Shown: positions 31,963-43,689 of the stretch, in pieces
Layout: every line of letters starts with the position of its first letter
How positions within the stretch are numbered: the first letter of the stretch is position 1
Source: a virus
Taxonomy: Duplodnaviria > Caudoviricetes
IMG/VR virus record: IMGVR_UViG_3300042997_000909
Location: 32,001-96,000 of that record
Length of the DNA stretch: 64,000 nt
Direction: 5' to 3' (one strand)
Notes under the pieces: generated by a model
What the model was told of the DNA's origin: nothing
Seen by the model: only the letters and a program-made list of their open reading frames with translations
Databases searched by the model: none
Program-made: the position numbers and the translations under genes

Positions 31963-32391
31963 TTATTGCATTGTATCTTCAGTAGACTCATGAGCGATTC
32001 TTATACAAGAAACCTCTTGAGCAAGAGCTAGTCTGTCTTCTGACAGACCATTCTTCAGTTCTTCAAGCGTTACGTTGATCCATGTCTCTTCAATCCATTC
32101 CTGACCATCATATTCTCCAACAGAATACTCACAACCATCAGGAATATGAACTAATACAAGTTCTGCATGATTTCCAGAGACAAACTCACTGCCTTTCTCT
32201 TCAAACAAGTCAATAAGAATTGGATCTTCTCTGTTTAAATCAATGTAGTGCTTTTCACCATCCATTTCTACAACAAGATTATAACTGTCATCAATAACAG
32301 TAAAAACTTTGTTGCTTCTTTTAAGCCATTCAAGACCTGCTTGAACAGAAGTTCCATAACCACCATAACATTTGTTCACTAATACTTTCAT
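31963..32391 (-). CDS. Hypothetical phage protein (NKCYGG..EYDGQE type)
   Basis: Recognisable recurring phage motif pattern. Confidence 0.75.
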   Translation of the reverse strand: MKVLVNKCYGGYGTSVQAGLEWLKRSNKVFTVIDDSYNLVVEMDGEKHYIDLNREDPILIDLFEEKGSEFVSGNHAELVLVHIPDGCEYSVGEYDGQEWIEETWINVTLEELKNGLSEDRLALAQEVSCIRIAHESTEDTMQ

Positions 32392-32419
32392 ATTCTTTAA
32401 ATTTACATTGTTTAAACAT

Positions 32420-33540
32420 CAAAAAACTAATGATATGTTCAATGCCATACTACTATACTTCATATGGCATTAGGAAATCACTCCTATAGGGTTCGCACGA
32501 CTGGCGTATACCCTACAAACTTCATGCAGTGCACCTGTATTACTACAACGCTTTGAGCCTAAGCAACTATTTATACTCGCTCAAACGAGTTTGAAAGGCT
32601 GAGTGTTGACCTTTCATATCGTGATTCTGACAACTTTCGTCATCTTACACACACTTGCGGTTAAGCAAGTACACGACATACTCAACAGAATAGGTTTCTG
32701 TCTGACCACTACGTACTGGCTCATAGGTTCCTTTTCCTACCAACTTCCCTGCAAAGGATTTACAAGATGCCTCCTGTTAGTTAGATAGTAATCATTTCCC
32801 TTGTCATCTGTCTTGCGAACGTCAAACATCTGCATATTACAGCAGAATAAGAGTATTATCACCAATACGTGCTTGGACACTTTTGCTTTTCTCTTTAAGT
32901 TATAAAGTTTTAAGCGGTCCAGGAATTGTGAAAGAAGTGGCCCAAGCGCACAGCATCATGCTACCTTTTGAGTAGTTTAGATACGACTTCTTTCTGTTTT
33001 CACCTGCCAAGGATACTCACTGTTCATTGTAATTGCCCACGGTATTTCTACCAACAGACTACAAAAAACTAACAAACGCTTCAGAGTTGGCGACTCCTAC
33101 TACAATTTGCTTACTACACTCTTCTATTGAGATTTCTCTCTCAAACTCCTGCCTGTCAGAAGTTCTGTAATACTGTGCATCAACCGTTAGGCCACAAGCA
33201 CACCATACTACAGGGAATATAGTACCTTTCAGAAGACAGAGATTACTCTCTGCGCAATGTGCTACCAACACATCACTTTATACCATCACTGGTTTATCCT
33301 ATGGTCACGAAGGCTGACCTGTTGTTTCAGTAACTCCACAAGGGAGCTTAACGCATACGCCATGAGTATTTCAACTCTGAGGGCAACAACAATGTATACT
33401 TATGGTCAGGTTCTCACCCTGACCGTATCCCCCATTCTGCTATGTTTCAAGACAGACCCAGGGATTCTCACTTGTCTGTTATGGTGAGCCAACGCCAGCA
33501 ACTTACTGGATAGACGCCTGGTTAAAGGAAAGACGCCAAT
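32420..33540 (-). ncRNA. Putative giant (~1.1 kb) structured non-coding RNA, GOLLD/ROOL-like class
   Basis: ORF-poor; multiple GNRA and T-loop hairpins that read correctly only on the minus strand; long-range complementarities. Confidence 0.7.
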
Positions 33541-33548
33541 ACTTTATC

Positions 33549-33917
33549 TTAATAGGTAATTTCAGGGATATACTGCTTGATATTAGCAAGTACTTCCTCA
33601 ATAGTCCTATAATCCACTTTGACATAACACTGAGAGTCAATGTCAATATCTCCTTCCCATCCTACATTCTTCACACAAGAGAAATAGAAATACTGATGCT
33701 TATCAAGTACAAAGGTATACATAGTACACCTATAATCAAGTTCGCGGAAATCTATCTTGTGCTTTTCTTTAAAAGACTCAGAAGCAAAAACATCAGGGTT
33801 AAGAGAACACAATGTACCTAATGCTATATTGTATTCATTACTACTAATAAAAGAACTACTATCTAATGTATGTTCTCTATCAAGTTCTAAGTATGCAATC
33901 ATACGTGCTCTTTCCAT
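33549..33917 (-). CDS. Hypothetical protein
   Basis: 122 aa ORF. Confidence 0.6.
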   Translation of the reverse strand: MERARMIAYLELDREHTLDSSSFISSNEYNIALGTLCSLNPDVFASESFKEKHKIDFRELDYRCTMYTFVLDKHQYFYFSCVKNVGWEGDIDIDSQCYVKVDYRTIEEVLANIKQYIPEITY

Positions 33918-34013
33918 GGGTAAAAAAGTTTTGAAGGTTTGTACTGAAGGTGTGAATAGCTATATAGTGTCACAATACTATGCGTTAATCACACAAAAAC
34001 TCAAGAGTAAAGA

Positions 34014-34052
34014 AAGGTGTAGTGAGGGATTTCTCCCTCACACTCACCTCCT
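34014..34052 (-). terminator. Intrinsic terminator
   Basis: GUGAGGGA-GAAA-UCCCUCAC extended stem followed by UUUCUUU on the minus strand. Confidence 0.65.
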
Positions 34053-34071
34053 CTAATGCAAGTGGATACTA

Positions 34072-34569
34072 TTATTCTCCACCAGGCAACATGCCTTTGC
34101 CACTGTTAAGTGTCTTAGACGCGCTAACCTCTGCCTGATTATCGTGAACCACGTTCACATCATGCATTTGATCAGCGGTATCCCACTTAACAAAGCGTAA
34201 AATACGCTCTCCACCAGCAGTCAACGCAGGACCATCAGCACCAGCACGCTTGATATAACTATCAATTGCTTCCTCATAGGCCACGTCATCACGTAGGAAC
34301 TCCTTCGCGATATCTGCAGGTACTTGAGATTCTAGGTACTCAAGTGCAACCAATTTACCTGGTACTTGCAAACCTTTACAAGAGGTCACGAATGCCTCAA
34401 GCGTAGCGGTTTTACCACGTAAAAGACAAGTGCGCTTAACTTCGCGTACCCATCCAGCGGTCATTACAATAGCACTTTGCTCTAATTGTACATAACCAAA
34501 ATCAGCGTTTGTGTCGTACGCTGTCACGATTGTGCCCTTCTTTCCAGGGACGATTCTAACATTACTCAT
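34072..34569 (-). CDS. Putative early protein, paralog of 35411-35902
   Basis: FGYVQLE..GWVRE.KRTCLLRG..KRAG.DG motifs shared with the paralog. Confidence 0.85.
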   Translation of the reverse strand: MSNVRIVPGKKGTIVTAYDTNADFGYVQLEQSAIVMTAGWVREVKRTCLLRGKTATLEAFVTSCKGLQVPGKLVALEYLESQVPADIAKEFLRDDVAYEEAIDSYIKRAGADGPALTAGGERILRFVKWDTADQMHDVNVVHDNQAEVSASKTLNSGKGMLPGGE

Positions 34570-34592
34570 ACATCAAGAGTTTTAAATTAATA

Positions 34593-34617
34593 CTGAATTC
34601 ATTGGGGGTTGTGGTGT
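34593..34617 (-). promoter_or_regulatory. 25-bp early-region motif, copy 1 (candidate phage RNAP promoter)
   Basis: CTGAATTCATTGGGGGTTGTGGTGT (+). Confidence 0.55.
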
Positions 34618-34978
34618 TGGACAAATCAGCGTGTCATACACCTTTCCTCAAGGGTGGCTTAGAACCTATCCTCACCTTGGGGAAAAAACTGCTGCGTATC
34701 GTATGCCTACCTGTGCACTCCCCTTCCCCCAAGTTGGGGACAAAAAACTGCACAACTTGACGCAATGTGTGATAGAGTGTACTCCATCCACTATGCATAC
34801 TGTGTGCAGCTTGTCCCCAAGGGTTGATTTTATTTTGAGAGCATTGGCATCAACATGCACGCCCAGAATACGCACATGAATCCAACAGCAGGTAGAATGT
34901 GTGTGCCCCTTGACATCAACACTCCACTAAATACACCCAGGCAGACCACTGCCCAGATGTATAACATCACTTGCTTTT

Positions 34979-35323
34979 TCATGCTGATAAAGAGTAATCA
35001 CGTTTGCGATAGTTCTTCACTCTTGTGCAAGTGTAGGAAGACTTAACACTCTGGCGTCTATTTGCATAAGGCGCCCAAGTGATAAGCATGTACTCGCCAG
35101 GGAAATTCTTGTGGCGCTTGTTAGCAACTAAAGTCACTTGCAAGTCGCCACATAATCCTGGCACAGTACTGGCCATCATGATTCCATATCCACAAGGAGA
35201 TATTGCGAATCTGATACCTTCAACCTCTTCAACGTGAAATGTTAACACGTTATTCTTTTTCATCCAGCTGTGAAGAGGTGTTGAATCAAGCCACTGGAAA
35301 TTGTAATTTGATGCTTTCATGGG
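34979..35323 (-). CDS. Hypothetical early protein
   Basis: MKASNYNF... with A-rich leader. Confidence 0.55.
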   Translation of the reverse strand, partial: PMKASNYNFQWLDSTPLHSWMKKNNVLTFHVEEVEGIRFAISPCGYGIMMASTVPGLCGDLQVTLVANKRHKNFPGEYMLITWAPYANRRQSVKSSYTCTRVKNYRKRDYSLSA

Positions 35324-35367
35324 AATTGTTTTTAAAGCATTAATAAAAGTCACGCACTTAATTTAAA

Positions 35368-35400
35368 GAGAGACACGCCTGCGTGATAGACGTGCCTCTC
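35368..35400 (-). terminator. Intrinsic terminator-like hairpin
   Basis: GAGAGGCACGUC...GGCGUGUCUCUC followed by UUU. Confidence 0.55.
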
Positions 35401-35410
35401 ATAGGACTGT

Positions 35411-35902
35411 TTAGAATGGTGCGTCCTCTGATTTAGCACCCTCTGCTTTGGAAGCAGCCACCTCAGCGATGTTATCGTGAGAGATGATGATGTCTTGGGT
35501 AATACCCGCTCCATCATACTCTGTGAATCTCACGATACGCTTTCCACCTTTGGTAAGGTGAACGCCATCTTGACCTGCGCGTTTCAAGTAAGGCTCAAGA
35601 GCTTCCTCAAGACTGATGTCATCGCGCAGGTTAGACTTTGCGACATCAGCAGGAATTTCATCCTCAAGATACTCGCGCACTGCTATGCGTCCTGGAAGTG
35701 TTTTGGTAGCAGCGACCAAATCTTCTAAGCGTGCAACAGTACCTCTCATAAGGCATGTGCGCTTAGAATCACGTATCCAACCCTTCTCAAAAGAGGTTGC
35801 AACGGTTTCCAGGACAATGTATCCAAACTCTTTGTTTGTTGAATACACGTTTACTAATACTCCTTTAGCATTAGCTTTGATAGTTACAGCGTTTGTTGCC
35901 AT
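35411..35902 (-). CDS. Putative early protein, paralog of 34072-34569 (possibly SSB-like)
   Basis: Start at MATNAV; acidic-aromatic tail EDAPF. Confidence 0.85.
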   Translation of the reverse strand: MATNAVTIKANAKGVLVNVYSTNKEFGYIVLETVATSFEKGWIRDSKRTCLMRGTVARLEDLVAATKTLPGRIAVREYLEDEIPADVAKSNLRDDISLEEALEPYLKRAGQDGVHLTKGGKRIVRFTEYDGAGITQDIIISHDNIAEVAASKAEGAKSEDAPF

Positions 35903-35985
35903 AATCGTGGGAATGGTTGACCTAAGCACCAAAAGGTTCAAATATAAAATGTGTACTATAATTCTAAAGGCCATAGTACTGATGC

Positions 35986-36010
35986 CTGAATATCTTGGGA
36001 GTTGTGGTGT
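35986..36010 (-). promoter_or_regulatory. 25-bp early-region motif, copy 2
   Basis: CTGAATATCTTGGGAGTTGTGGTGT (+). Confidence 0.55.
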
Positions 36011-36234
36011 ACAACGTGCAAGGCAATGTGTGTTGGACAACAGGTTAATAGAAACACAGAGCATCATGTATGACACTCTGTGGTTCGTCCTGCGCAGGCA
36101 CGTGGCATCCCACCACGTCTTTGAAATCACTTGCAATTATCTCTGTAGTAAGCGTATGCTTCTGACAAAGACAATGCAATGATTTGTACTCCTGCAATGT
36201 AGTATGTTTTGTACATTGTATGGATTTTGTTGTC

Positions 36235-36259
36235 CTGGATGTCATGGGGGGTGTGGTGT
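36235..36259 (-). promoter_or_regulatory. 25-bp early-region motif, copy 3
   Basis: CTGGATGTCATGGGGGGTGTGGTGT (+). Confidence 0.55.
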
Positions 36260-36444
36260 AGCTGGGTGATGGCGGGGGTTGATTCAATAGACAGTACTCA
36301 TATTCTCTTCCTCAGAGAGATTTCAATACTCAAAAAAATTTTATAGATTTGTGAGTGCATACCAATTTGCACCATAGAGTTTTCTATAGAAATAATTTAC
36401 TCTAGAAAGATGAAAGGGGGGTAGTTGCTGATGCTACCTCTTTT

Positions 36445-36939
36445 TTATGACCAGTGGTTATTAGGTTTCTCCCAATAGAATTCTAGTTCGCGGTCTGACT
36501 CTTTGTAGTATCTTCCTACTATGTCTGATTTGTATATGCTATCCATGTTTTCAAACAATGCTGCTGTGTGATATGTGATGCCTGCAACATCTAAGCATTC
36601 TGTGATCCATGTGTAGTTCTTACCAGTAATCACGCCTGCTTCTACGAGAATCACGTTATCATAGTGCTGGAATTTGCGAATACCCATTGCGTTTGTCTGA
36701 TCTAATAGCTGTCTTATATATGATACCTTATCCTCATCTGGGTATGGTACGTCCACAAAGGTCATATCTAGCATCTCGCCATCTTTGCTCAAGTGATGAG
36801 CCACATGCATTCCAACTGTTGCACTATAATCTGGACTAACCACCACGACTAATGTCTTACTTGGGTGTGTATCCAGACTTTCTAACTTTCTACAAAGTTC
36901 TTTGAGCACTGTCCATTCTAAATCACGTGATACATACAT
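36445..36939 (-). CDS. Divergent phosphoribosyltransferase-fold protein
   Basis: VILVEAGVITGKN resembles the PRPP loop; C-terminal FYWE. Confidence 0.6.
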   Translation of the reverse strand: MYVSRDLEWTVLKELCRKLESLDTHPSKTLVVVVSPDYSATVGMHVAHHLSKDGEMLDMTFVDVPYPDEDKVSYIRQLLDQTNAMGIRKFQHYDNVILVEAGVITGKNYTWITECLDVAGITYHTAALFENMDSIYKSDIVGRYYKESDRELEFYWEKPNNHWS

Positions 36940-36953
36940 AATAAAAGTTTTGA

Positions 36954-36999
36954 CAAATGTAATATAAATTTGTTGAGTTTAAACTTTTGAGTATATTTG
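36954..36999. promoter_or_regulatory. Divergent Bacteroidota sigma-type promoters
   Basis: TACATTTG on - (36954-36961); TATATTTG on + (36992-36999) with TTTG 19 bp upstream. Confidence 0.7.
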
Positions 37000-37021
37000 T
37001 CAAAACTTAAATAATATATTT

Positions 37022-37258
37022 ATGACAGAAGAAAAAGAAGAAGTATCACGCGAAGATGTCTTGGCATGGTACAAAGATCAGATCGAGTTAGCTACAGTAC
37101 GTGCAGACTTAGCAGAGCAGCAGGCACGCGCAGTACGCTTTGAGTCTGAGAGATTACAACACGTGGTTATGATTGCAAACATCAAGACTGCAGGTACTAA
37201 TATCATTGATGGTGAAGATGATAAAGAAGAAGAAAAATCACCAGAAACTAAATCTTAA
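37022..37258 (+). CDS. Hypothetical coiled-coil protein
   Basis: First gene of the right arm. Confidence 0.75.
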   Translation: MTEEKEEVSREDVLAWYKDQIELATVRADLAEQQARAVRFESERLQHVVMIANIKTAGTNIIDGEDDKEEEKSPETKS

Positions 37259-37269
37259 AAGTTTAAATT

Positions 37270-37545
37270 ATGAAGTTAATAGGAAGACGTGTTTTAATTA
37301 ACATACCAAAAAGACCAGAGTCAGTAATTGAGTTGACTCCAGAAACAGAACGTGAACTTGAAATGAAAATGATTGACAAGTGGATAGCACTTGAAGTCTT
37401 TGCAACAGGGGCTGATGTAGATTCAGTGAGTGTGGGGGATAAGGTTTATGTACCTTCTTCTGCTTTACAGAACGCAGAACGTATACCAGTGGATGGTGAT
37501 ACAAAAATGATGATTGGAGAATTTGATATTGCCATTGTATGGTAA
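37270..37545 (+). CDS. GroES-like co-chaperonin
   Basis: KLIGRRVLI, EVFATG.DV.SVSVGDKV, EFDIAIV. Confidence 0.7.
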   Translation: MKLIGRRVLINIPKRPESVIELTPETERELEMKMIDKWIALEVFATGADVDSVSVGDKVYVPSSALQNAERIPVDGDTKMMIGEFDIAIVW

Positions 37546-37573
37546 GGTTGACAATTTTTAAAAACCAAATAAT

Positions 37574-37891
37574 ATGAGTACAGAAAAAGAAAAACCAGAA
37601 TTAACAGAACCAACAATTGTCAATGAGGAGTTAATTGACATGAATAACATTTCCACTGAGAGTCGTGGAGAGCAGTTGGTAGGTATTGCATTTAACCCAT
37701 CTAGAGATAGTGAGGTTGATACAGTCAAACGCGCATGTGCATACTTGATTGATGTTATTGAAAAGCATCGTGAAGACAGCAGTGTTAATGGAACTCTTAC
37801 AGCAAACAGAGAGTTCTTAATGAATCATGCTCTTGGTGAAATCATCAATGCCCAAATGAATGTTGTCAAAGTTATTACATTCCAAAAGTAA
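37574..37891 (+). CDS. Acb2/Tad1-like helical protein (candidate cyclic-nucleotide sponge)
   Basis: GEQLVGIAFNPS..V..VK..A.LID...A..EI..AQM.VVK.IT pattern. Confidence 0.5.
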   Translation: MSTEKEKPELTEPTIVNEELIDMNNISTESRGEQLVGIAFNPSRDSEVDTVKRACAYLIDVIEKHREDSSVNGTLTANREFLMNHALGEIINAQMNVVKVITFQK

Positions 37892-37895
37892 GACT

Positions 37896-38246
37896 ATGGA
37901 TAAAAACTTTGAGTGTGTAGCAAAACCTAGTAATCCTTTATTAGTGAATATGCAGCAAACGTTTGACAATTGTTACACTGTTGCTAAAGCTAAAAACAAT
38001 GATTATGGTGGCACTAACAAAGACCCATTTGCCAATTTCAGAAATAGCACCATTGCAGGTGTGACTGTTGAGAAAGGTATTTTGGTGAGATTGATGGACA
38101 AGATGTCCAGAATATCTACCCTACTTGACAAAGAAGCTATGGTAAAAGATGAATCTATTATTGACACAATACAAGATGCTATCAACTACCTGGCTATCAT
38201 GAAAGCATTTATTGAACTAAAAGAAAAAAGAGATGAGCGTTGCTAA
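37896..38246 (+). CDS. DUF1599-like nucleotide-modification-associated protein
   Basis: KNNDYG..DPFANF..VRLMDKMSR..DESIIDTIQDAINY. Confidence 0.75.
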   Translation: MDKNFECVAKPSNPLLVNMQQTFDNCYTVAKAKNNDYGGTNKDPFANFRNSTIAGVTVEKGILVRLMDKMSRISTLLDKEAMVKDESIIDTIQDAINYLAIMKAFIELKEKRDERC

Positions 38247-38475
38247 ATATACCAAAAAACCTGTGACCATTGAAGCATTACAATGGACAGGTGACAATAG
38301 AAAAGAGTTATTTGATTTCTGTGATCAATCTTACATGAACGGAGATGAGTTAAGAATTCAAACGCTTGAAGGCTCAATGATTGCATCTATTGGTGATTAC
38401 ATCATCAAGGGTGTAAAAGGTGAGTTCTATCCTTGCAAGCCAGACATCTTTGATCTTACGTATACTAAACTTTAA
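38233..38475 (+). CDS. KKPVxIEA / PGDYG-type small protein (candidate Acb4-like sponge)
   Basis: KKPVTIEALQW..TLEGSM.A..GDYIIKGVKGEFYPCKPDIF..TY. Confidence 0.6.
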   Translation: MSVAKYTKKPVTIEALQWTGDNRKELFDFCDQSYMNGDELRIQTLEGSMIASIGDYIIKGVKGEFYPCKPDIFDLTYTKL

Positions 38476-38480
38476 AAAAA

Positions 38481-38867
38481 ATGGAAGAAAAATCACTACA
38501 CAACACCACAGCCAACGGTGCTAAAAAGAATGTTAGAGACATTCAATTTTGGGGAGATGGCGATACATTCAGACTTATCAGCAAAGCATCAAGCCAGGCT
38601 GAAGGTTGGATGAAATCAACCAAAGCAATGCCTGCAGGTAAGTCTGTAGTGGTACAGGTTACTACTCAGCAAAGAAACCCTGATGGAAGTTATTCCATTG
38701 CAGAAGCGTTGACAACAGTTCCTAATGCAATTATTGCTGAATTTTTAGACAATGATGATGTAGTAAAATACAGAGCAATCATTGAACGCGATATCAGACA
38801 TTCTGGTTTAGTAACTGTTATTGAAAAAAATGTTGAAGTAGAACTTGCTGAAGATGGAAGTAACTAA
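38481..38867 (+). CDS. Hypothetical protein (EGWMKSTKAM..VQVTTQQ)
   Basis: Strongly patterned small phage protein. Confidence 0.75.
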   Translation: MEEKSLHNTTANGAKKNVRDIQFWGDGDTFRLISKASSQAEGWMKSTKAMPAGKSVVVQVTTQQRNPDGSYSIAEALTTVPNAIIAEFLDNDDVVKYRAIIERDIRHSGLVTVIEKNVEVELAEDGSN

Positions 38868-39249
38868 AGTTGAAAAAAAGTACAGATTGACTCATTATGA
38901 CCTGGTTAAGTATCAGGTCATAACTGAGTTTGTGTTCTTTAAGAAAGAGAATCTTATTGACACTGATTTAGAACTGCTTACGCTTTTGGCCATTGAGGGG
39001 CCAGTAGATTTGACAAAGTTTTGTAACTTAACTGTCAAAAATACGTATCCTGATGTTAGTCCAGAGGAGTTTGGTGTAAAGTCTCAGAATGTGCGAAACA
39101 AACTAACAAAACTAGAAAAGCGTGGTCTGATAAAAAAGTCAGATACCTTCAAGAAAACTATAGAGATAGCAATGTCTGTACCTGTATTAAGTTCTGGTAA
39201 CGTGATGTTAGATTATAAATTTTTAGCTCTTGAGACCAATAAAGCGTAA
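38854..39249 (+). CDS. Putative winged-helix DNA-binding protein
   Basis: SQNVRNKLTKLEKRGLIKK. Confidence 0.6.
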   Translation: MEVTKVEKKYRLTHYDLVKYQVITEFVFFKKENLIDTDLELLTLLAIEGPVDLTKFCNLTVKNTYPDVSPEEFGVKSQNVRNKLTKLEKRGLIKKSDTFKKTIEIAMSVPVLSSGNVMLDYKFLALETNKA

Positions 39250-39619
39250 AGAGATTTCTGAGAAAGTTGCAGAAAGATTAAATTTGTCTTCAGAAACAGT
39301 TGACGAAATAGTATCTTGTTATTACAACATGATTCAGAGAAAACTTAGTCAGTTAGAGTTTCCAAGTATTACAGTAGATAACTTAGGTACGTTTTTCGTC
39401 AAGCGTCCAAAGTTAGAAGAAAAATTAATGATATACAGGAAGTCTCTAGAAAAGTATGAAAGTATAAAGCAACCAGACATGGCTCAATTCAAGTCAATCA
39501 TGGAACTTAAAGCTGACATACAGAAATTTGAAAACATTCTTGCAGAACTTGACAAGTTAGATGTTAAGAAGCAAGAGAAACAACAAGAAAAAATAACCTA
39601 TAAAAATAACAAATCATGA
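39230..39619 (+). CDS. HU/IHF-like DNA-binding protein
   Basis: EISEKVAE.LNL...V..IV, ITVDNLGTF. Confidence 0.65.
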   Translation: MRPIKRKEISEKVAERLNLSSETVDEIVSCYYNMIQRKLSQLEFPSITVDNLGTFFVKRPKLEEKLMIYRKSLEKYESIKQPDMAQFKSIMELKADIQKFENILAELDKLDVKKQEKQQEKITYKNNKS

Positions 39620-39921
39620 ACTTAATAAAAATCTGGAAAGAGAAAGGAAAGATTTTAGAGGGTGTAAAGAACAGTATGTTCAAGCAGGAGCATATTGAAG
39701 AAATTGCAGCATCTAGAATGGCAATCTGCGAGGATTGCTTTTTTATTGATAAAGAGGGTTCTAAGTGCTACATGAAAGGAACTCAACCTTGCTGTGGAGA
39801 ATGTGGCTGTAAGCTTTCATTTAAGACACGTTCTTTGTCATCGTCATGTCCTAAGAACAAATGGGAATCAATCACGTCTGAAGAGGAGGAAGACGCCATT
39901 ATTAACAGTATAAAAGACTAA
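39616..39921 (+). CDS. Cys-rich Zn-binding protein
   Basis: R..IC..C, CCGECGC.L..K.R...CP..KW. Confidence 0.7.
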   Translation: MNLIKIWKEKGKILEGVKNSMFKQEHIEEIAASRMAICEDCFFIDKEGSKCYMKGTQPCCGECGCKLSFKTRSLSSSCPKNKWESITSEEEEDAIINSIKD

Positions 39922-39923
39922 GC

Positions 39924-40769
39924 ATGTTATCATTTGAACCAGAACATCACAAGTACGTATCACTTGATCCAAACGACCAAACAGATTGGATTAGTGTGAC
40001 AACCTTAATATCATATTTTAAACAACCATTTGATGCTAAGGCTATATCTAAGAAGAGTTCCAAATCAAGTAAGAAGTGGAAAGGATTAACACCTGACACA
40101 ATCCAAGAAATTTGGAAAGCTGAGGCAAAACGTGCAACTGACTTAGGAACCTGGTATCATGATCAACGTGAACAAGACATAGTATCATGTGATACTATTA
40201 ATCGCCATGATGCTACACTTGCAGTAATTAAACCAATTGTTAATGAAAAAGGATATAAAGTAGCGTCATCACAAAAAATACTTTCTGGCATATATCCAGA
40301 ACATCTTGTATTCTTGCGTTCTATAGGCGTGTGTGGACAATCAGATTTGGTAGAGATTGCACATGGCCTGATACACATTACAGATTACAAAACAAACAAA
40401 GAAATTAAGACATCATCTTACGTGAACTGGGAAGGACTTTCTCAGAAAATGAATCACCCAGTTTCACATTTAGATGACTGCAATTATTATCATTACGCGC
40501 TACAACTTTCAGCGTACATGTACATGATTCAGAAACATAACCCTACACTGCAACCTGGAAGTCTTGTCTTACATCACATTATATTTGAAGTAGAAGGTGA
40601 AGATGATTATGGTTATCCAATTGTCAGTCGTACTGAACAGGGAGATCCAATTGTAAAAGATGTTGTTCAATATAATTTACCATACTTGAAAGAAGAGGTA
40701 ATGGCAATTTTTCAGTATCTTAAAGACAACAAAACTGAGATAATTAACTTCTCAAAAAACAAAAAATAA
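39924..40769 (+). CDS. PD-(D/E)XK nuclease
   Basis: SVTT, GT.YH, GQSDLV, DYKTNK, YALQLSAY. Confidence 0.85.
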   Translation: MLSFEPEHHKYVSLDPNDQTDWISVTTLISYFKQPFDAKAISKKSSKSSKKWKGLTPDTIQEIWKAEAKRATDLGTWYHDQREQDIVSCDTINRHDATLAVIKPIVNEKGYKVASSQKILSGIYPEHLVFLRSIGVCGQSDLVEIAHGLIHITDYKTNKEIKTSSYVNWEGLSQKMNHPVSHLDDCNYYHYALQLSAYMYMIQKHNPTLQPGSLVLHHIIFEVEGEDDYGYPIVSRTEQGDPIVKDVVQYNLPYLKEEVMAIFQYLKDNKTEIINFSKNKK

Positions 40770-41284: not shown

Positions 41285-41483
41285 AGATACACAACAGTTT
41301 ATGTTCTTTGTTAAAGTAGAGCATATTACAGATGGACCTTTGATACAAAGAGATTTACCATGTGTACCATCAAAAGGTGATTGGATAGAACTTGGTAAAG
41401 AAAACTTTGTAGTAAAAAATGTTTCTTGGAACTTTTCTGATAGAAGAACAGTAACTTTATTAGTTGATACACCAAAATTTTAA
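41271..41483 (+). CDS. Small hypothetical protein
   Basis: PCVPSKGDWI..FVVKNVSW; ATG at 41271. Confidence 0.55.
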   Translation: MTNSKDTQQFMFFVKVEHITDGPLIQRDLPCVPSKGDWIELGKENFVVKNVSWNFSDRRTVTLLVDTPKF

Positions 41484-41484
41484 G

Positions 41485-43689
41485 ATGTACAGAGAAATAC
41501 CAACATACAATTACGAGACTGACGAATGGAGTTATACTGTGTTTGACACACGAGAAGAGTTAGCAGATTTTGTAGAAAGCATATTTAAAGAACCAGGTCA
41601 ATATGAGTTTGATGAGTGTTCAGAAAAGTTTAATGCTGAAGGTAGAAAGTTTAATAAAAACAGGGTATACTGCCTTGCACCTGAGCGTTCAAAAGATTTT
41701 GTAAACTACTGGAATACAGAAAAAGACAAATGCAGAAATGGTGTAATCTACAAGAACAATGGTAAGAGTTGGTATTTGCCACGCGATTACTACATGTGGT
41801 TAAATTTTTTACCTATCTATAATAAGGAAGTAAACAGATTTACATTTGCTGATGTGCGTGATGCTCAGTATCATATGGCACTTTATGAAGAGTTGGCTCA
41901 ATTAAAAAATAAACATGCAGCTATTCTTAAGAAACGTCAGATTGCATCTTCATATTATCACTCAGGAAAGATTGCAAACTTATTTTATTTTGAGGAAGGT
42001 TCTGTTGCAAAGATGGCAGGATCACTTAAAGACTATATAAATGAAAAAGGTACATGGCGTTTTCTTGAAGAGTATCGTAACTTCTTAAATAAACACACAG
42101 CATGGTATCGTCCATGTAATCCAGACAAGGTTCTTAACTGGGAGCAGAAGACTGAAGTAACCCAAGGTGGTAGAAAAGTGGACATTGGTCTCAAGTCTGT
42201 TATCATGGGTGTGGTTCTTGAGAAAGATCCAACCAATGGTGTAGGGGGTCCTTGTACTTTATTCTTCCACGAGGAGGCAGGAATTGCTCCTAAGATGAAC
42301 ATTACACTTGAGTACTTATTACCTGCCATGAAATCAGGTATGGTTTATACAGGTATGTTTGTTGTTGCTGGTTCTGTGGGTGACTTGGATCAGTGTGAAC
42401 CTCTAAAAGAGTTAATACTTAATCCAGATTCCAAGGACGTTTTAGCAGTGCAAACAGATTTATTAGATGACAAAGGCACTAAAGGTCTTTGTGGTTTATT
42501 CATTCCAGAACAATGGTCAATGCTTCCATGTATAGATCAGTATGGGAACTCTGAAGTGGAAAAAGCATTAGAGATGATTCTTATTGAGCGTGAAGACTGG
42601 AAGAAAAAACTTAAACCAGAGGATTATAGACTACGTATTTCTCAGAAACCTATTAACATAAAAGAGGCTTTTGATTATAGAAAAGAAGCTAGATTTCCAG
42701 AGCACTTGGTATCACAACAAATTAGACGTATAGAAGAAAAGGAGTATCCTACTGAGTATGTGGATTTGGTGTGGGAAGATGACAAAATAGTTCAAAAGTC
42801 TACACGCAAGATACCTATCATGGAGTTCCCAATATCTCCAAAGACAGAAAGCAAAGAAGGTGTCATCATTATTTATGAGAAACCAATTGAGAATCCAAAG
42901 TTTGGAACATATTACGCATCCATTGACCCTGTTTCTGAAGGTAAAACCACTACATCTGAGTCATTATGTTCTATATTTGTGTACAAAACAATACAGGAAG
43001 TCAAAGTGAATAAGAAAGATGGTACAGTTGAAACACGCGTAGAGGGCGACAAGATTGTTGCAGCTTGGTGTGGACGCTTTGATGACTTAAAGAAAACACA
43101 TGAACGTCTTGAAATACTTATTGAATACTACAACGCATGGACAATTGTAGAGAACAATGTTCACTTGTTTATTCAGTACATGATTTCTAGACGTAAACAA
43201 AAATATCTTGTACCTAAAAACCAAATTATGTTCCTCAAAGAACTTGGTAGTAATAACAACGTCTTTCAGGAGTATGGTTGGAAAAATACAGGTACATTGT
43301 TTAAAGCAAACCTGGTGTCTTATGCTATTCAGTTTCTTGAAGAAGAGATTGATGTAGAGACAAAACCAGATGGAACCATAACCAAAGTGACATATGGTGT
43401 AGAAAGAATTCCTGATATCATGCTTTTGAAAGAAATGCAAGCATACAGAGATGGACTTAACGTTGACCGCTTGGTTGCGTTTTGTGCGTTGGTTGCATTT
43501 GCTAAAGTGCAAGAATCAAATAGAGGATTCTCAAAACGCACTGAGCATGAAAACACTGAACATTTGGAAAATAAAAATAAAAATAGTAACTTATTTATGA
43601 GTCCATTTCGTCATATTGGTAATACTGCATCTAATGCAGAATCAACAGCAATGAAGAAACCTAGGAATCCATTTAAAAACATGAGGTAA
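41485..43689 (+). CDS. terL: Terminase large subunit
   Basis: LKKRQIASSY (Walker A), FFHEEAG (Walker B), ASIDP and NVDRL nuclease motifs. Confidence 0.93.
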   Translation: MYREIPTYNYETDEWSYTVFDTREELADFVESIFKEPGQYEFDECSEKFNAEGRKFNKNRVYCLAPERSKDFVNYWNTEKDKCRNGVIYKNNGKSWYLPRDYYMWLNFLPIYNKEVNRFTFADVRDAQYHMALYEELAQLKNKHAAILKKRQIASSYYHSGKIANLFYFEEGSVAKMAGSLKDYINEKGTWRFLEEYRNFLNKHTAWYRPCNPDKVLNWEQKTEVTQGGRKVDIGLKSVIMGVVLEKDPTNGVGGPCTLFFHEEAGIAPKMNITLEYLLPAMKSGMVYTGMFVVAGSVGDLDQCEPLKELILNPDSKDVLAVQTDLLDDKGTKGLCGLFIPEQWSMLPCIDQYGNSEVEKALEMILIEREDWKKKLKPEDYRLRISQKPINIKEAFDYRKEARFPEHLVSQQIRRIEEKEYPTEYVDLVWEDDKIVQKSTRKIPIMEFPISPKTESKEGVIIIYEKPIENPKFGTYYASIDPVSEGKTTTSESLCSIFVYKTIQEVKVNKKDGTVETRVEGDKIVAAWCGRFDDLKKTHERLEILIEYYNAWTIVENNVHLFIQYMISRRKQKYLVPKNQIMFLKELGSNNNVFQEYGWKNTGTLFKANLVSYAIQFLEEEIDVETKPDGTITKVTYGVERIPDIMLLKEMQAYRDGLNVDRLVAFCALVAFAKVQESNRGFSKRTEHENTEHLENKNKNSNLFMSPFRHIGNTASNAESTAMKKPRNPFKNMR

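What the first reader, a model, noticed from the sequence alone, without database searches (positions are those of the whole stretch)
37574..38867. Candidate anti-defence nucleotide-sponge cluster at the start of the right arm
Seen: four small, closely packed genes between the GroES-like gene and the terminase module. 37574-37891 has the FNPS..VK..A.LID..AQM.VVK helical pattern I associate with the Acb2/Vs.4/Tad1 sponge superfamily. 38233-38475 is a KKPVxIEA..GDYIIKG..FYPCKPDIF protein, a family I recall as matching Acb4-type cGAMP sponges. 37896-38246 is a DUF1599-like protein. Known: sponges that sequester CBASS/Thoeris signals are small and cluster in phage genomes. Inference: this is a multi-sponge cassette; both sponge assignments are unverified recall.
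Basis: partly seen in the sequence, partly recalled or inferred. Interest (0 to 1): 0.78.

Follow-up and report, generated by a model that had tools for sequence, protein, structure and literature searches.

The report
Phage immune-signal sponge gene cassette
A 123-kb environmental crAss-like phage carries four tightly packed small genes: one is a clear member of the Lockin family of proteins that soak up bacterial Thoeris alarm molecules, one is a divergent relative of the Acb2 anti-CBASS sponge, and a third belongs to a very widespread domain of unknown function that related phages fuse directly to Lockin.

Summary
The four ORFs and the quoted motifs are real. The sponge idea holds in outline, but the assignments need correcting.

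Residues 1-84 align without gaps to LockinA (PDB 9p8l, E 7e-27) and keep all six 3'cADPR-contact residues.
- **37574-37891** is a divergent Acb2/Tad1-hairpin relative. It misses Pfam PF24729 itself, but its family profile matches threshold-passing members at 98.8% HHalign probability. It keeps an aromatic/Lys pair that may correspond to the dinucleotide pocket, but not the Arg/Thr of the trinucleotide pocket.
- **38233-38475** is not Acb4. It has no PF13876 match and a different secondary-structure order. Its SPO1 homologue is gp34.82, whereas Acb4 is gp1.3. It belongs to a huge uncharacterised PGDYG-like family (24,423 clusters) with no solved relative.
- **New here:** this domain is fused to Lockin in 16 of the 120 closest Lockin clusters. 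It lies within 1.5 kb of Lockin in 21 of 57 related viral loci. The two window genes are therefore a split pair.
- **37896-38246** is DUF1599-like only below threshold.

Earlier scan notes on other genomes had already flagged Lockin fusions and PGDYG-like/Tad2 fusions. No binding or defence assay was possible.

The parts
37574..37891 (+). Gene A, 105 aa: divergent member of the Acb2/Tad1-hairpin superfamily (candidate cyclic-oligonucleotide sponge) with a roughly 30-residue low-confidence N-terminal extension
   Evidence: The AF2 model (pLDDT 77) shows a short helix 31-36 plus a hairpin, H46-71 and H77-104. HHalign of its family (A1) against 8 PF24729-passing proteins gives 98.8%, E 1e-16, over residues 27-103. 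tblastn hits are Aaphi23 ORF38 at 1e-11, EcP1 gp26 at 9e-6 and Pmp11_0039 at 1e-5; the last two pass PF24729. The only PF24729 hit in the genome falls inside this gene, at 12 bits. T4 Vs.4 (7uq2, Z 7.3) and Acb2 (8h2j/8h2x, Z 6.5) appear among many tied helical hairpins.
37896..38246 (+). Gene B, 116 aa: helical protein, sub-threshold DUF1599-like (Nucleotide modification associated domain 1); function unknown
   Evidence: PF07659 scores 19.8 bits against a cut-off of 25. Six relatives score 15-18 bits over most of the profile. phrog_1485 matches at 2e-17. There is no PDB match by profile. A B homologue lies near Lockin in 7 of 57 related loci.
38233..38475 (+). Gene C, 80 aa: stand-alone PGDYG-like beta-rich domain (SPO1 gp34.82 family); split partner of the Lockin gene downstream
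   Evidence: phrog_419 matches at 1e-33. There are 24,423 representative clusters at E<=1e-3. The AF2 model has pLDDT 93. Foldseek against the PDB gave no match at E<=0.001 and the best VIA Z was 3.8. BFVD matches are phage 'PGDYG protein' entries. The domain is fused N-terminally to Lockin in 16 of 120 Lockin clusters.
38481..38867 (+). Gene D, 128 aa: Lockin-family anti-Thoeris sponge (core residues 1-84) with a variable C-terminal tail of about 40 residues
   Evidence: phmmer against PDB 9p8l (LockinA) gives E 6.8e-27 with a gapless alignment of residues 1-84. K35, K45, S46, T47, K48 and Q59, the 3'cADPR contacts named in 10.1101/2025.07.12.664507, are identical and invariant in 29 relatives. 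The 99%-identical cluster representative carries PF26760.1 in the precomputed annotation.

Best explanation
This is an anti-defence cassette aimed at nucleotide-based bacterial immune signalling, and it is probably transcribed as one unit at the start of the right arm.

Gene D is a Lockin-family protein. By homology it should assemble into a hexamer with six inter-protomer pockets that sequester the TIR-made Thoeris signals (3'cADPR, possibly His-ADPR). The effector would then never be activated.

Gene A is a divergent Acb2/Tad1-hairpin protein. By analogy it would oligomerise and sequester a cyclic oligonucleotide, most likely a CBASS-type dinucleotide. The specificity may be altered, because the Arg/Thr pair of the Acb2 trinucleotide pocket is replaced.

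Gene C is not Acb4. It is a PGDYG-like domain of unknown biochemistry that is functionally tied to Lockin, since related phages encode the two as one polypeptide. My best guess is a second ligand-binding or signal-processing module acting in the same pathway.

Gene B, DUF1599-like, is a weaker and occasional member of the same neighbourhood.

Shown here: the homologies, the conserved contact residues, the fusions and the synteny. Inferred: oligomeric states, ligands and any anti-defence phenotype.
For: **Gene D.** It matches LockinA (9p8l) at E 6.8e-27 over residues 1-84 without gaps. The numbering reproduces the paper's contact residues K35, K45, S46, T47, K48 and Q59 exactly, and all are conserved. 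The K...GWMKSTK...Q motif is present in 116 of the 120 closest clusters.

**Gene A.**
- Profile-profile comparison with PF24729-passing proteins gives 98.8% probability, E 1e-16, over 72 columns.
- Six A-like proteins found by the A-family HMM next to Lockin genes pass the PF24729 cut-off at 30-44 bits.
- The model is a short helix plus a long hairpin, the build described for Acb2, and Vs.4 and Acb2 structures are among the top matches.
- F40 sits at the profile position of Vs.4 Y8.
- An invariant Lys, K52, follows 12 residues later.

**Linkage.** I examined 57 non-redundant Lockin loci with at least 1.5 kb on both sides.
- An A/Acb2-like gene lies within 1.5 kb on the same strand in 20, and within 400 nt in 14.
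- A C-like domain lies within 1.5 kb in 21, and in the same open frame in 6.
- Gene order varies: B-C-A-D, A-C-D, C-A-D and D-A-C.
- 16 of the 120 closest Lockin clusters are C~Lockin fusions.
- Other C-domain fusion partners include Tad2-like (1) and Lar restriction alleviation (2) among 93 long forms.
- In SPO1 the C homologue gp34.82 lies 2.1 kb from Tad2 (gp34.65), in the same array of small genes.
Against: - No binding, oligomer or phage-rescue data exist for any of these four proteins.
- A itself fails PF24729 (12 bits against 27). Profile searches of the PDB with the A family found no Acb2 or Tad1 chain. Its structural matches are tied with hundreds of unrelated hairpins (Z 7-8).
- The positions equivalent to Acb2 R67/T74 are F81/G88.
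- The spacing from the aromatic residue to the Lys is 12 residues, not 15.
- The related loci come largely from one phage lineage, so synteny partly reflects shared ancestry.
- Most members of the huge C family occur without Lockin. The C-terminal partners of the C domain are extremely diverse: 72 of the 80 extension segments (N- or C-terminal, 35 aa or longer) had no BLAST relative among the others. That pattern would also fit a generic adaptor or binding domain.
- D has a tail of about 40 residues that LockinA lacks.
- The host, and whether it has Thoeris or CBASS, is unknown.
Confidence: 0.68

Rival explanations
1. One reading: a multi-sponge cassette in which 37574-37891 is an Acb2/Tad1-type sponge and 38233-38475 is an Acb4-type cGAMP sponge.
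For: The Acb2/Tad1 half is supported. C is small, very conserved, lies among anti-defence genes and is fused to sponges in relatives.
Against: - Acb4 is PF13876, a 96-aa protein built as three helices, three strands and two helices, forming a tetramer.
- PF13876 has no match in the genome at E<=10.
- The positive control, SPO1 gp1.3, scores 35.5 bits on PF13876 but has 0.3% HHalign probability against the C profile. SPO1 gp34.82 scores 99.8%.
- The C model runs strand, helix, five strands, helix.
Confidence: 0.03
2. Only the Lockin gene is anti-defence. A, B and C are unrelated accessory genes that travel with it because the related contigs share ancestry, and the C~Lockin fusions are neutral gene-fusion accidents.
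For: - 30 of the 57 Lockin loci have none of A, B or C nearby.
- The C family is far larger than the Lockin family and mostly occurs without it.
- C's fusion partners are very heterogeneous.
Against: - A is homologous to a known sponge family.
- Gene order is shuffled while linkage is kept.
- The fusions have several different linkers and lengths, 187-220 aa, in 16 clusters.
- Independent fusions of the C domain to Tad2-like and Lar domains exist.
Confidence: 0.17
3. B and C form a nucleotide-metabolism or nucleotide-modification module (a MazG/DUF1599-type helical pyrophosphohydrolase plus an accessory domain) that merely sits beside the sponge genes.
For: - B gives consistent sub-threshold DUF1599 hits.
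- C matches phrog_4159, annotated as nucleotide pyrophosphohydrolase, at 2e-9.
- One BFVD relative is annotated as QueE, and two Curtobacterium phage hits as nicotinate ribosyltransferase.
- B and C overlap by 14 nt.
Against: - No catalytic motif was verified.
- B is present in only 7 of the 57 Lockin loci, whereas C is present in 21.
- No B-like sequence was found among the extension segments of the 149 best C-family representatives.
- C is fused to Lockin, not to B, in this lineage.
Confidence: 0.1

Closest known systems
Lockin (LockinA, PDB 9p8l; Tal et al., bioRxiv 10.1101/2025.07.12.664507)
   Same: About 60% identity over the 84-residue core. All six 3'cADPR-contact residues are identical. 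It is a small phage protein sitting in a cluster of small genes.
   Different: D is 128 aa against 97-98 aa, with a variable C-terminal tail. Its phage is crAss-like and environmental, not a Bacillus phage. In this lineage Lockin is often fused to, or preceded by, a PGDYG-like domain. Hexamer formation and binding were not tested.
Acb2 / T4 Vs.4 / Tad1 hairpin domain (Pfam PF24729; PDB 8h2j, 8h2x, 7uq2)
   Same: The build is the same, a short helix plus a long antiparallel hairpin. A is homologous to threshold-passing family members (HHalign 98.8%). It has an aromatic residue at the Y8/Y11 profile position, an invariant Lys on helix 2, and the C-terminal A-Q-M-x-V-K motif.
   Different: A itself scores below the Pfam threshold. 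It has an N-terminal extension of about 30 residues. The R67/T74 trinucleotide-pocket positions are F81/G88. The aromatic-to-Lys spacing is 12 rather than 15. The subfamily also has its own invariant residues (R53, C55, N92, and an S-R-G-E motif with G32/E33 invariant and S30/R31 nearly so).
Acb4 (SPO1 gp1.3; Pfam PF13876; PDB 9E4W)
   Same: Only size and genomic setting are shared: both are small phage proteins among accessory genes.
   Different: There is no sequence or profile similarity, and the order of secondary-structure elements differs. SPO1 encodes both proteins as separate, unrelated genes (gp1.3 and gp34.82).
PGDYG protein family (Pfam PF14083) / PHROG 419 / SPO1 gp34.82
   Same: C matches phrog_419 at 1e-33 and SPO1 gp34.82 at 99.8% HHalign probability. 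BFVD structural matches have TM up to 0.94, and many carry a 'PGDYG protein' name.
   Different: C itself does not hit PF14083. No member of the family has a known function or a solved structure. The link to Lockin comes from this analysis.
DUF1599 / Nucleotide modification associated domain 1 (Pfam PF07659)
   Same: B and six relatives align to most of the 61-position profile.
   Different: All scores (15-19.8 bits) are below the 25-bit cut-off. The function of DUF1599 is itself unknown.

Membership tests
Lockin | Sequence homology to an experimentally verified Lockin (LockinA) | tested here: met
   phmmer against PDB 9p8l gives E 6.8e-27 and 97 bits, with residues 1-84 aligned without gaps.
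Lockin | Conservation of the 3'cADPR-contact residues K35, K45, S46, T47, K48, Q59 (K45 and K48 shown by mutation to be needed) | tested here: met
   All six are identical in D at the same numbering. They are invariant in an alignment of 29 relatives.
Lockin | Pfam family carried by the relatives (PF26760; an earlier scan note, e1-5323884, names it the Lockin family, which I could not check) | tested here: inconclusive
   All 120 listed homologues, including a 99%-identical cluster representative, carry PF26760.1 in the precomputed annotation. The model is absent from the local Pfam copy, so D could not be scored directly.
Lockin | Homo-hexamer with six inter-protomer pockets | not testable with these tools
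Lockin | Binds 3'cADPR / His-ADPR and cancels Thoeris defence | not testable with these tools
   This needs biochemistry and plaque assays.
Acb2/Tad1 hairpin (PF24729) | Score above the Pfam gathering threshold (27 bits) | tested here: not met
   A scores 12 bits, although this is the only hit in the genome. Five of 32 family members give weak hits, the best at E 1.6e-3.
Acb2/Tad1 hairpin (PF24729) | Homology to threshold-passing members by profile-profile comparison | tested here: met
   HHalign of A1 against 8 proteins scoring 30-44 bits on PF24729 gives 98.8% probability, E 1.1e-16, over 72 columns.
Acb2/Tad1 hairpin (PF24729) | Fold: short N-terminal helix plus two long antiparallel helices | tested here: inconclusive
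   The model has H31-36, H46-71 and H77-104. Vs.4 scores Z 7.3 and Acb2 Z 6.5, but they are tied with many unrelated hairpins.
Acb2/Tad1 hairpin (PF24729) | Dinucleotide-pocket residues (PaMx33 Y11 and K26; T4 Y8 and K23) | tested here: inconclusive
   F40 falls at the profile position of Y8. The invariant K52 lies 12 rather than 15 residues downstream. Equivalence is inferred from alignment ranges only.
Acb2/Tad1 hairpin (PF24729) | Trinucleotide-pocket residues (PaMx33 R67 and T74) | tested here: not met
   The aligned positions are F81 and G88 in A. The EcP1-like and Lockin-adjacent canonical members keep R and T. T4 Vs.4 also lacks the Arg and does not bind cA3.
Acb4 (PF13876) | Match to PF13876 | tested here: not met
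   C has no hit at E<=0.1. The whole 123-kb genome has none at E<=10. The positive control, SPO1 gp1.3, scores 35.5 bits.
Acb4 (PF13876) | Similarity to the founding member, SPO1 gp1.3 | tested here: not met
   HHalign of the C profile against gp1.3 gives 0.3% probability. The same profile against SPO1 gp34.82 gives 99.8%.
Acb4 (PF13876) | Topology: three N-terminal helices, three antiparallel strands, two C-terminal helices | tested here: not met
   DSSP of the pLDDT-93 model gives strand, helix, five strands, helix, against the description. Absence of 9E4W from the fold-search lists is not used as evidence.
PGDYG (PF14083) | Match to PF14083 | tested here: inconclusive
   C and the genome give no hit. 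Five of 93 longer relatives hit weakly, the best at 9e-5. BFVD structural neighbours are named PGDYG protein.
DUF1599 (PF07659) | Score above the gathering threshold (25 bits) | tested here: not met
   B scores 19.8 bits and six relatives 15-18.3 bits. The resemblance is consistent but always below threshold.

The most novel reading that the evidence does not exclude
The PGDYG-like domain of gene C is itself an anti-defence module. It is one of the most widespread small phage domains (24,423 clusters at 50% identity) and has no known function or solved relative. It could be a new signal-binding (sponge) or signal-processing domain that works together with Lockin, and in other phages with Tad2. 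That would explain why it is repeatedly fused or adjacent to sponge genes and why about 24 of its 80 positions are invariant among the 34 closest relatives aligned.
Probability: 0.3. Interest if true: 0.8.

Novelty: new member of a known kind. Interest (0 to 1): 0.5.

Why it matters
This places a Lockin sponge and a divergent Acb2-type protein side by side in a complete crAss-like phage genome. It adds to the picture that phages stack several signal-sequestering proteins in one cassette.

The more useful result is the Rosetta-stone link. A very common phage domain of unknown function is encoded as one polypeptide with Lockin in many relatives and as the adjacent gene here. That gives this family a concrete, testable functional context for the first time.

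The divergent Acb2-like subfamily has lost the trinucleotide-pocket residues. It may therefore have a shifted ligand range worth measuring.

Tried and rejected
- **Acb4 for gene C:** rejected.
- **Fold searches with the C model (pLDDT 93):** Foldseek against the PDB gave nothing at E<=0.001 and the best VIA-wide Z was 3.8. No solved sponge or any other fold could be assigned.
- **PDB searches for A:** the single sequence and the profiles A1 and A3 found only spurious matches, namely a designed TIM barrel and Keap1.
- **HHalign of the A family against T4 Vs.4 alone:** this found only the C-terminal motif, at 2.4% probability.
- **Foldseek with the A model:** nothing below E=1.
- **The Importin_rep_3 hit of A:** discarded as a helical-repeat artefact.
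- **N4 gp49:** an earlier scan note describes its N-terminal domain as attached to many sponge families. I tested whether it is the C domain, and it is not.
- **B profile against the PDB:** nothing.
- **NCBIfam:** nothing for any of the four proteins.
- **Promoter and terminator scan:** no signal above the shuffled expectation.
- **A blastn of C against E. coli genomes:** no match and uninformative.
- **Literature:** no paper in the held library mentions PGDYG, gp34.82 or phrog_419.

Full report
**Setting.** The window is bases 32001-96000 of a 123,450-bp IMG/VR virus record with direct terminal repeats, so it is a complete uncultivated phage genome. Its large terminase is about 26% identical to those of crAss-like phages and of some Flavobacterium phages. 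GC skew changes sign near 36-37 kb, where the coding strand switches.

**Observation.**
- A, 37574-37891, 105 aa
- B, 37896-38246, 116 aa
- C, 38233-38475, 80 aa
- D, 38481-38867, 128 aa

The spacings are 4 nt, a 14-nt overlap and 5 nt. No terminator-like site lies on the + strand among them. The quoted motifs are present. All four have many homologues, so these are real genes.

**Gene D is a Lockin.**
- A search of all PDB chains found one hit: 9p8l, 'Lockin', at E 6.8e-27, with residues 1-84 aligned without a gap.
- The primer sequence in Tal et al. (bioRxiv 10.1101/2025.07.12.664507) identifies that chain as LockinA.
- The paper describes a hexamer that encloses six 3'cADPR molecules. The contacts come from K35, K45, S46, T47, K48 and Q59, and the K45 and K48 mutants lose activity.
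- Counting along the alignment reproduces exactly those residue numbers in LockinA. D has the identical residue at each.
- All six are invariant in 29 relatives. The K...GWMKSTK...Q motif is present in 116 of the 120 closest clusters.
- D's relatives carry PF26760 in the precomputed annotation. That model is missing from the local Pfam copy.
- D differs from LockinA by a variable C-terminal tail of about 40 residues.
- Two cultured Bacillus phages, Flasso and phBC6A51, also encode a Lockin core.

**Gene A is a divergent Acb2/Tad1-hairpin protein.** Direct tests were weak:
- There was no PHROG match and no significant Pfam match (only a sub-threshold Importin_rep_3 hit, discarded as a helical-repeat artefact).
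- Sequence and profile searches of the PDB found nothing real.
- PF24729 scores only 12 bits, though it is the model's only hit in the genome and lies inside A.

The AF2 model (pLDDT 77) is a short helix plus a long hairpin. T4 Vs.4 (Z 7.3) and PaMx33 Acb2 (Z 6.5) appear among the matches, but they are tied with many unrelated hairpins.

The decisive evidence is transitive and then direct:
- tblastn links A to Aaphi23 ORF38 (1e-11), EcP1 gp26 (9e-6) and Pmp11_0039 (1e-5).
- EcP1 gp26 and Pmp11_0039 pass PF24729 at 37.5 and 42.5 bits. T4 Vs.4 scores 71 bits.
- The A-family HMM also finds small proteins next to Lockin genes in related contigs. Six of them pass PF24729 at 30-44 bits.
- HHalign of the 32-sequence A family against these eight threshold-passing proteins gives 98.8% probability, E 1e-16, over residues 27-103.

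Residue mapping against the Acb2 literature gives the following:
- F40 lies at the profile position of Vs.4 Y8 / Acb2 Y11.
- An invariant Lys (K52) follows on helix 2, 12 rather than 15 residues later. The alignment ranges of the structural matches place it at or next to K26/K23. This equivalence is an inference.
- The trinucleotide-pocket residues R67/T74 are kept in the canonical neighbours but are F81/G88 in A.

A is therefore a member of the superfamily, in a distinct subfamily with probably altered ligand range.

**Gene C is not Acb4.**
- Chang et al. define Acb4 as SPO1 gp1.3, Pfam PF13876, a 96-aa protein of three helices, three strands and two helices that forms a tetramer.
- C has no PF13876 hit, and neither does the whole genome.
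- As a control, SPO1 gp1.3 scores 35.5 bits on PF13876 but has 0.3% HHalign probability against the C profile. SPO1 gp34.82 scores 99.8%.
- The C model (pLDDT 93) runs strand, helix, five strands, helix. It has no significant PDB neighbour by Foldseek or VIA, with a best Z of 3.8.
- It matches phage 'PGDYG protein' models in BFVD.
- The family is enormous: 24,423 representative clusters and 1,055 of 50,697 phage records.
- No function has been reported in the held literature.

**New link between C and D.**
- Among the 120 closest Lockin clusters, 16 are proteins of 187-220 aa with a C-like domain at the N-terminus and Lockin at the C-terminus. The linkers differ.
- I fetched 80 IMG/VR loci encoding Lockin relatives and analysed them with HMMs. 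In the 57 non-redundant loci with full flanks:
  - a C-like domain lies within 1.5 kb on the same strand in 21, and in the same frame in 6;
  - an A/Acb2-like gene lies within 1.5 kb in 20, and within 400 nt in 14;
  - B lies within 1.5 kb in 7.
- Gene order varies, which argues for selected linkage. The loci are phylogenetically related, however, so this is not independent evidence.
- More broadly, among the 149 best C-family representatives, 56 are stand-alone, 66 have a highly variable C-terminal extension, 15 are tandem duplications and 12 have N-terminal extensions.
- Pfam recognises few of the partners. Those it does recognise include Tad2-like (1) and Lar restriction alleviation (2).
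- In SPO1, gp34.82 lies 2.1 kb from Tad2 (gp34.65).
- The conserved N-terminal domain of N4 gp49, which an earlier scan note highlighted, is a different domain.

**Gene B.** B and its relatives give consistent but sub-threshold DUF1599 hits. There is no PDB match. Several relatives carry an extra N-terminal domain.

**Verdict.** The interval is best read as an anti-signalling cassette:
- a Lockin sponge (strong);
- a divergent Acb2-type protein (good homology, function inferred);
- a Lockin-linked PGDYG-like domain of unknown biochemistry;
- an uncertain DUF1599-like gene.

The families are known, so the cassette is a new member of a known kind. The C~Lockin Rosetta-stone relation is the lead worth following.

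Noticed in passing
protein P0303, not in the window: A 3,743-aa metagenomic protein carries many tandem copies of the C-like domain: 28 matched stretches in the library search and 14 domains at a regular 129-residue period in my HMM scan. It could be a real repeat protein or an assembly artefact.
   Followed up: partly
L035:2900-3475, L038:891-1394, L052:2711-3280, L085:2458-3024, L032:2837-3391: Relatives of gene B carry an extra conserved N-terminal domain of about 60-80 residues (168-192 aa in total). The window's B lacks it, and it has no Pfam match.
   Followed up: partly
phage records MZ357961.1 (77504-77758) and NC_004820.1 (26252-26506): Two cultured Bacillus cereus phages, Flasso and phBC6A51, encode a Lockin core that is 60% identical to gene D over residues 1-85. 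The Lockin paper reported finding none in INPHARED.
   Followed up: partly
proteins P0237, P0235 and P0297: Other Lockin architectures exist: different N-terminal domains of about 75-95 residues fused to Lockin (P0237, P0235), and a Lockin core interrupted by an insertion of about 25 residues (P0297).
   Followed up: no
window 38845-40769: Directly downstream lie a winged-helix-like small protein (weak MarR/HTH hits), an HU/IHF-type DNA-binding protein (PF00216, 24.2 bits), a Cys-rich 101-aa protein and a PD-(D/E)XK exonuclease (phrog_298, 1.5e-21). These come before the large terminase at 41464-43689.
   Followed up: no
window 34001-36000: GC content rises to 0.445 against about 0.35 elsewhere, just before the strand switch. 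No tRNA genes were found in 32000-37600.
   Followed up: partly
   Followed up: partly
L023:2777-3040 and L023:3666-3911: One related contig carries two different A-like hairpin genes upstream of its Lockin gene, with a C-like gene between them. This suggests duplication and divergence of the Acb2-like gene within the cassette.
   Followed up: no
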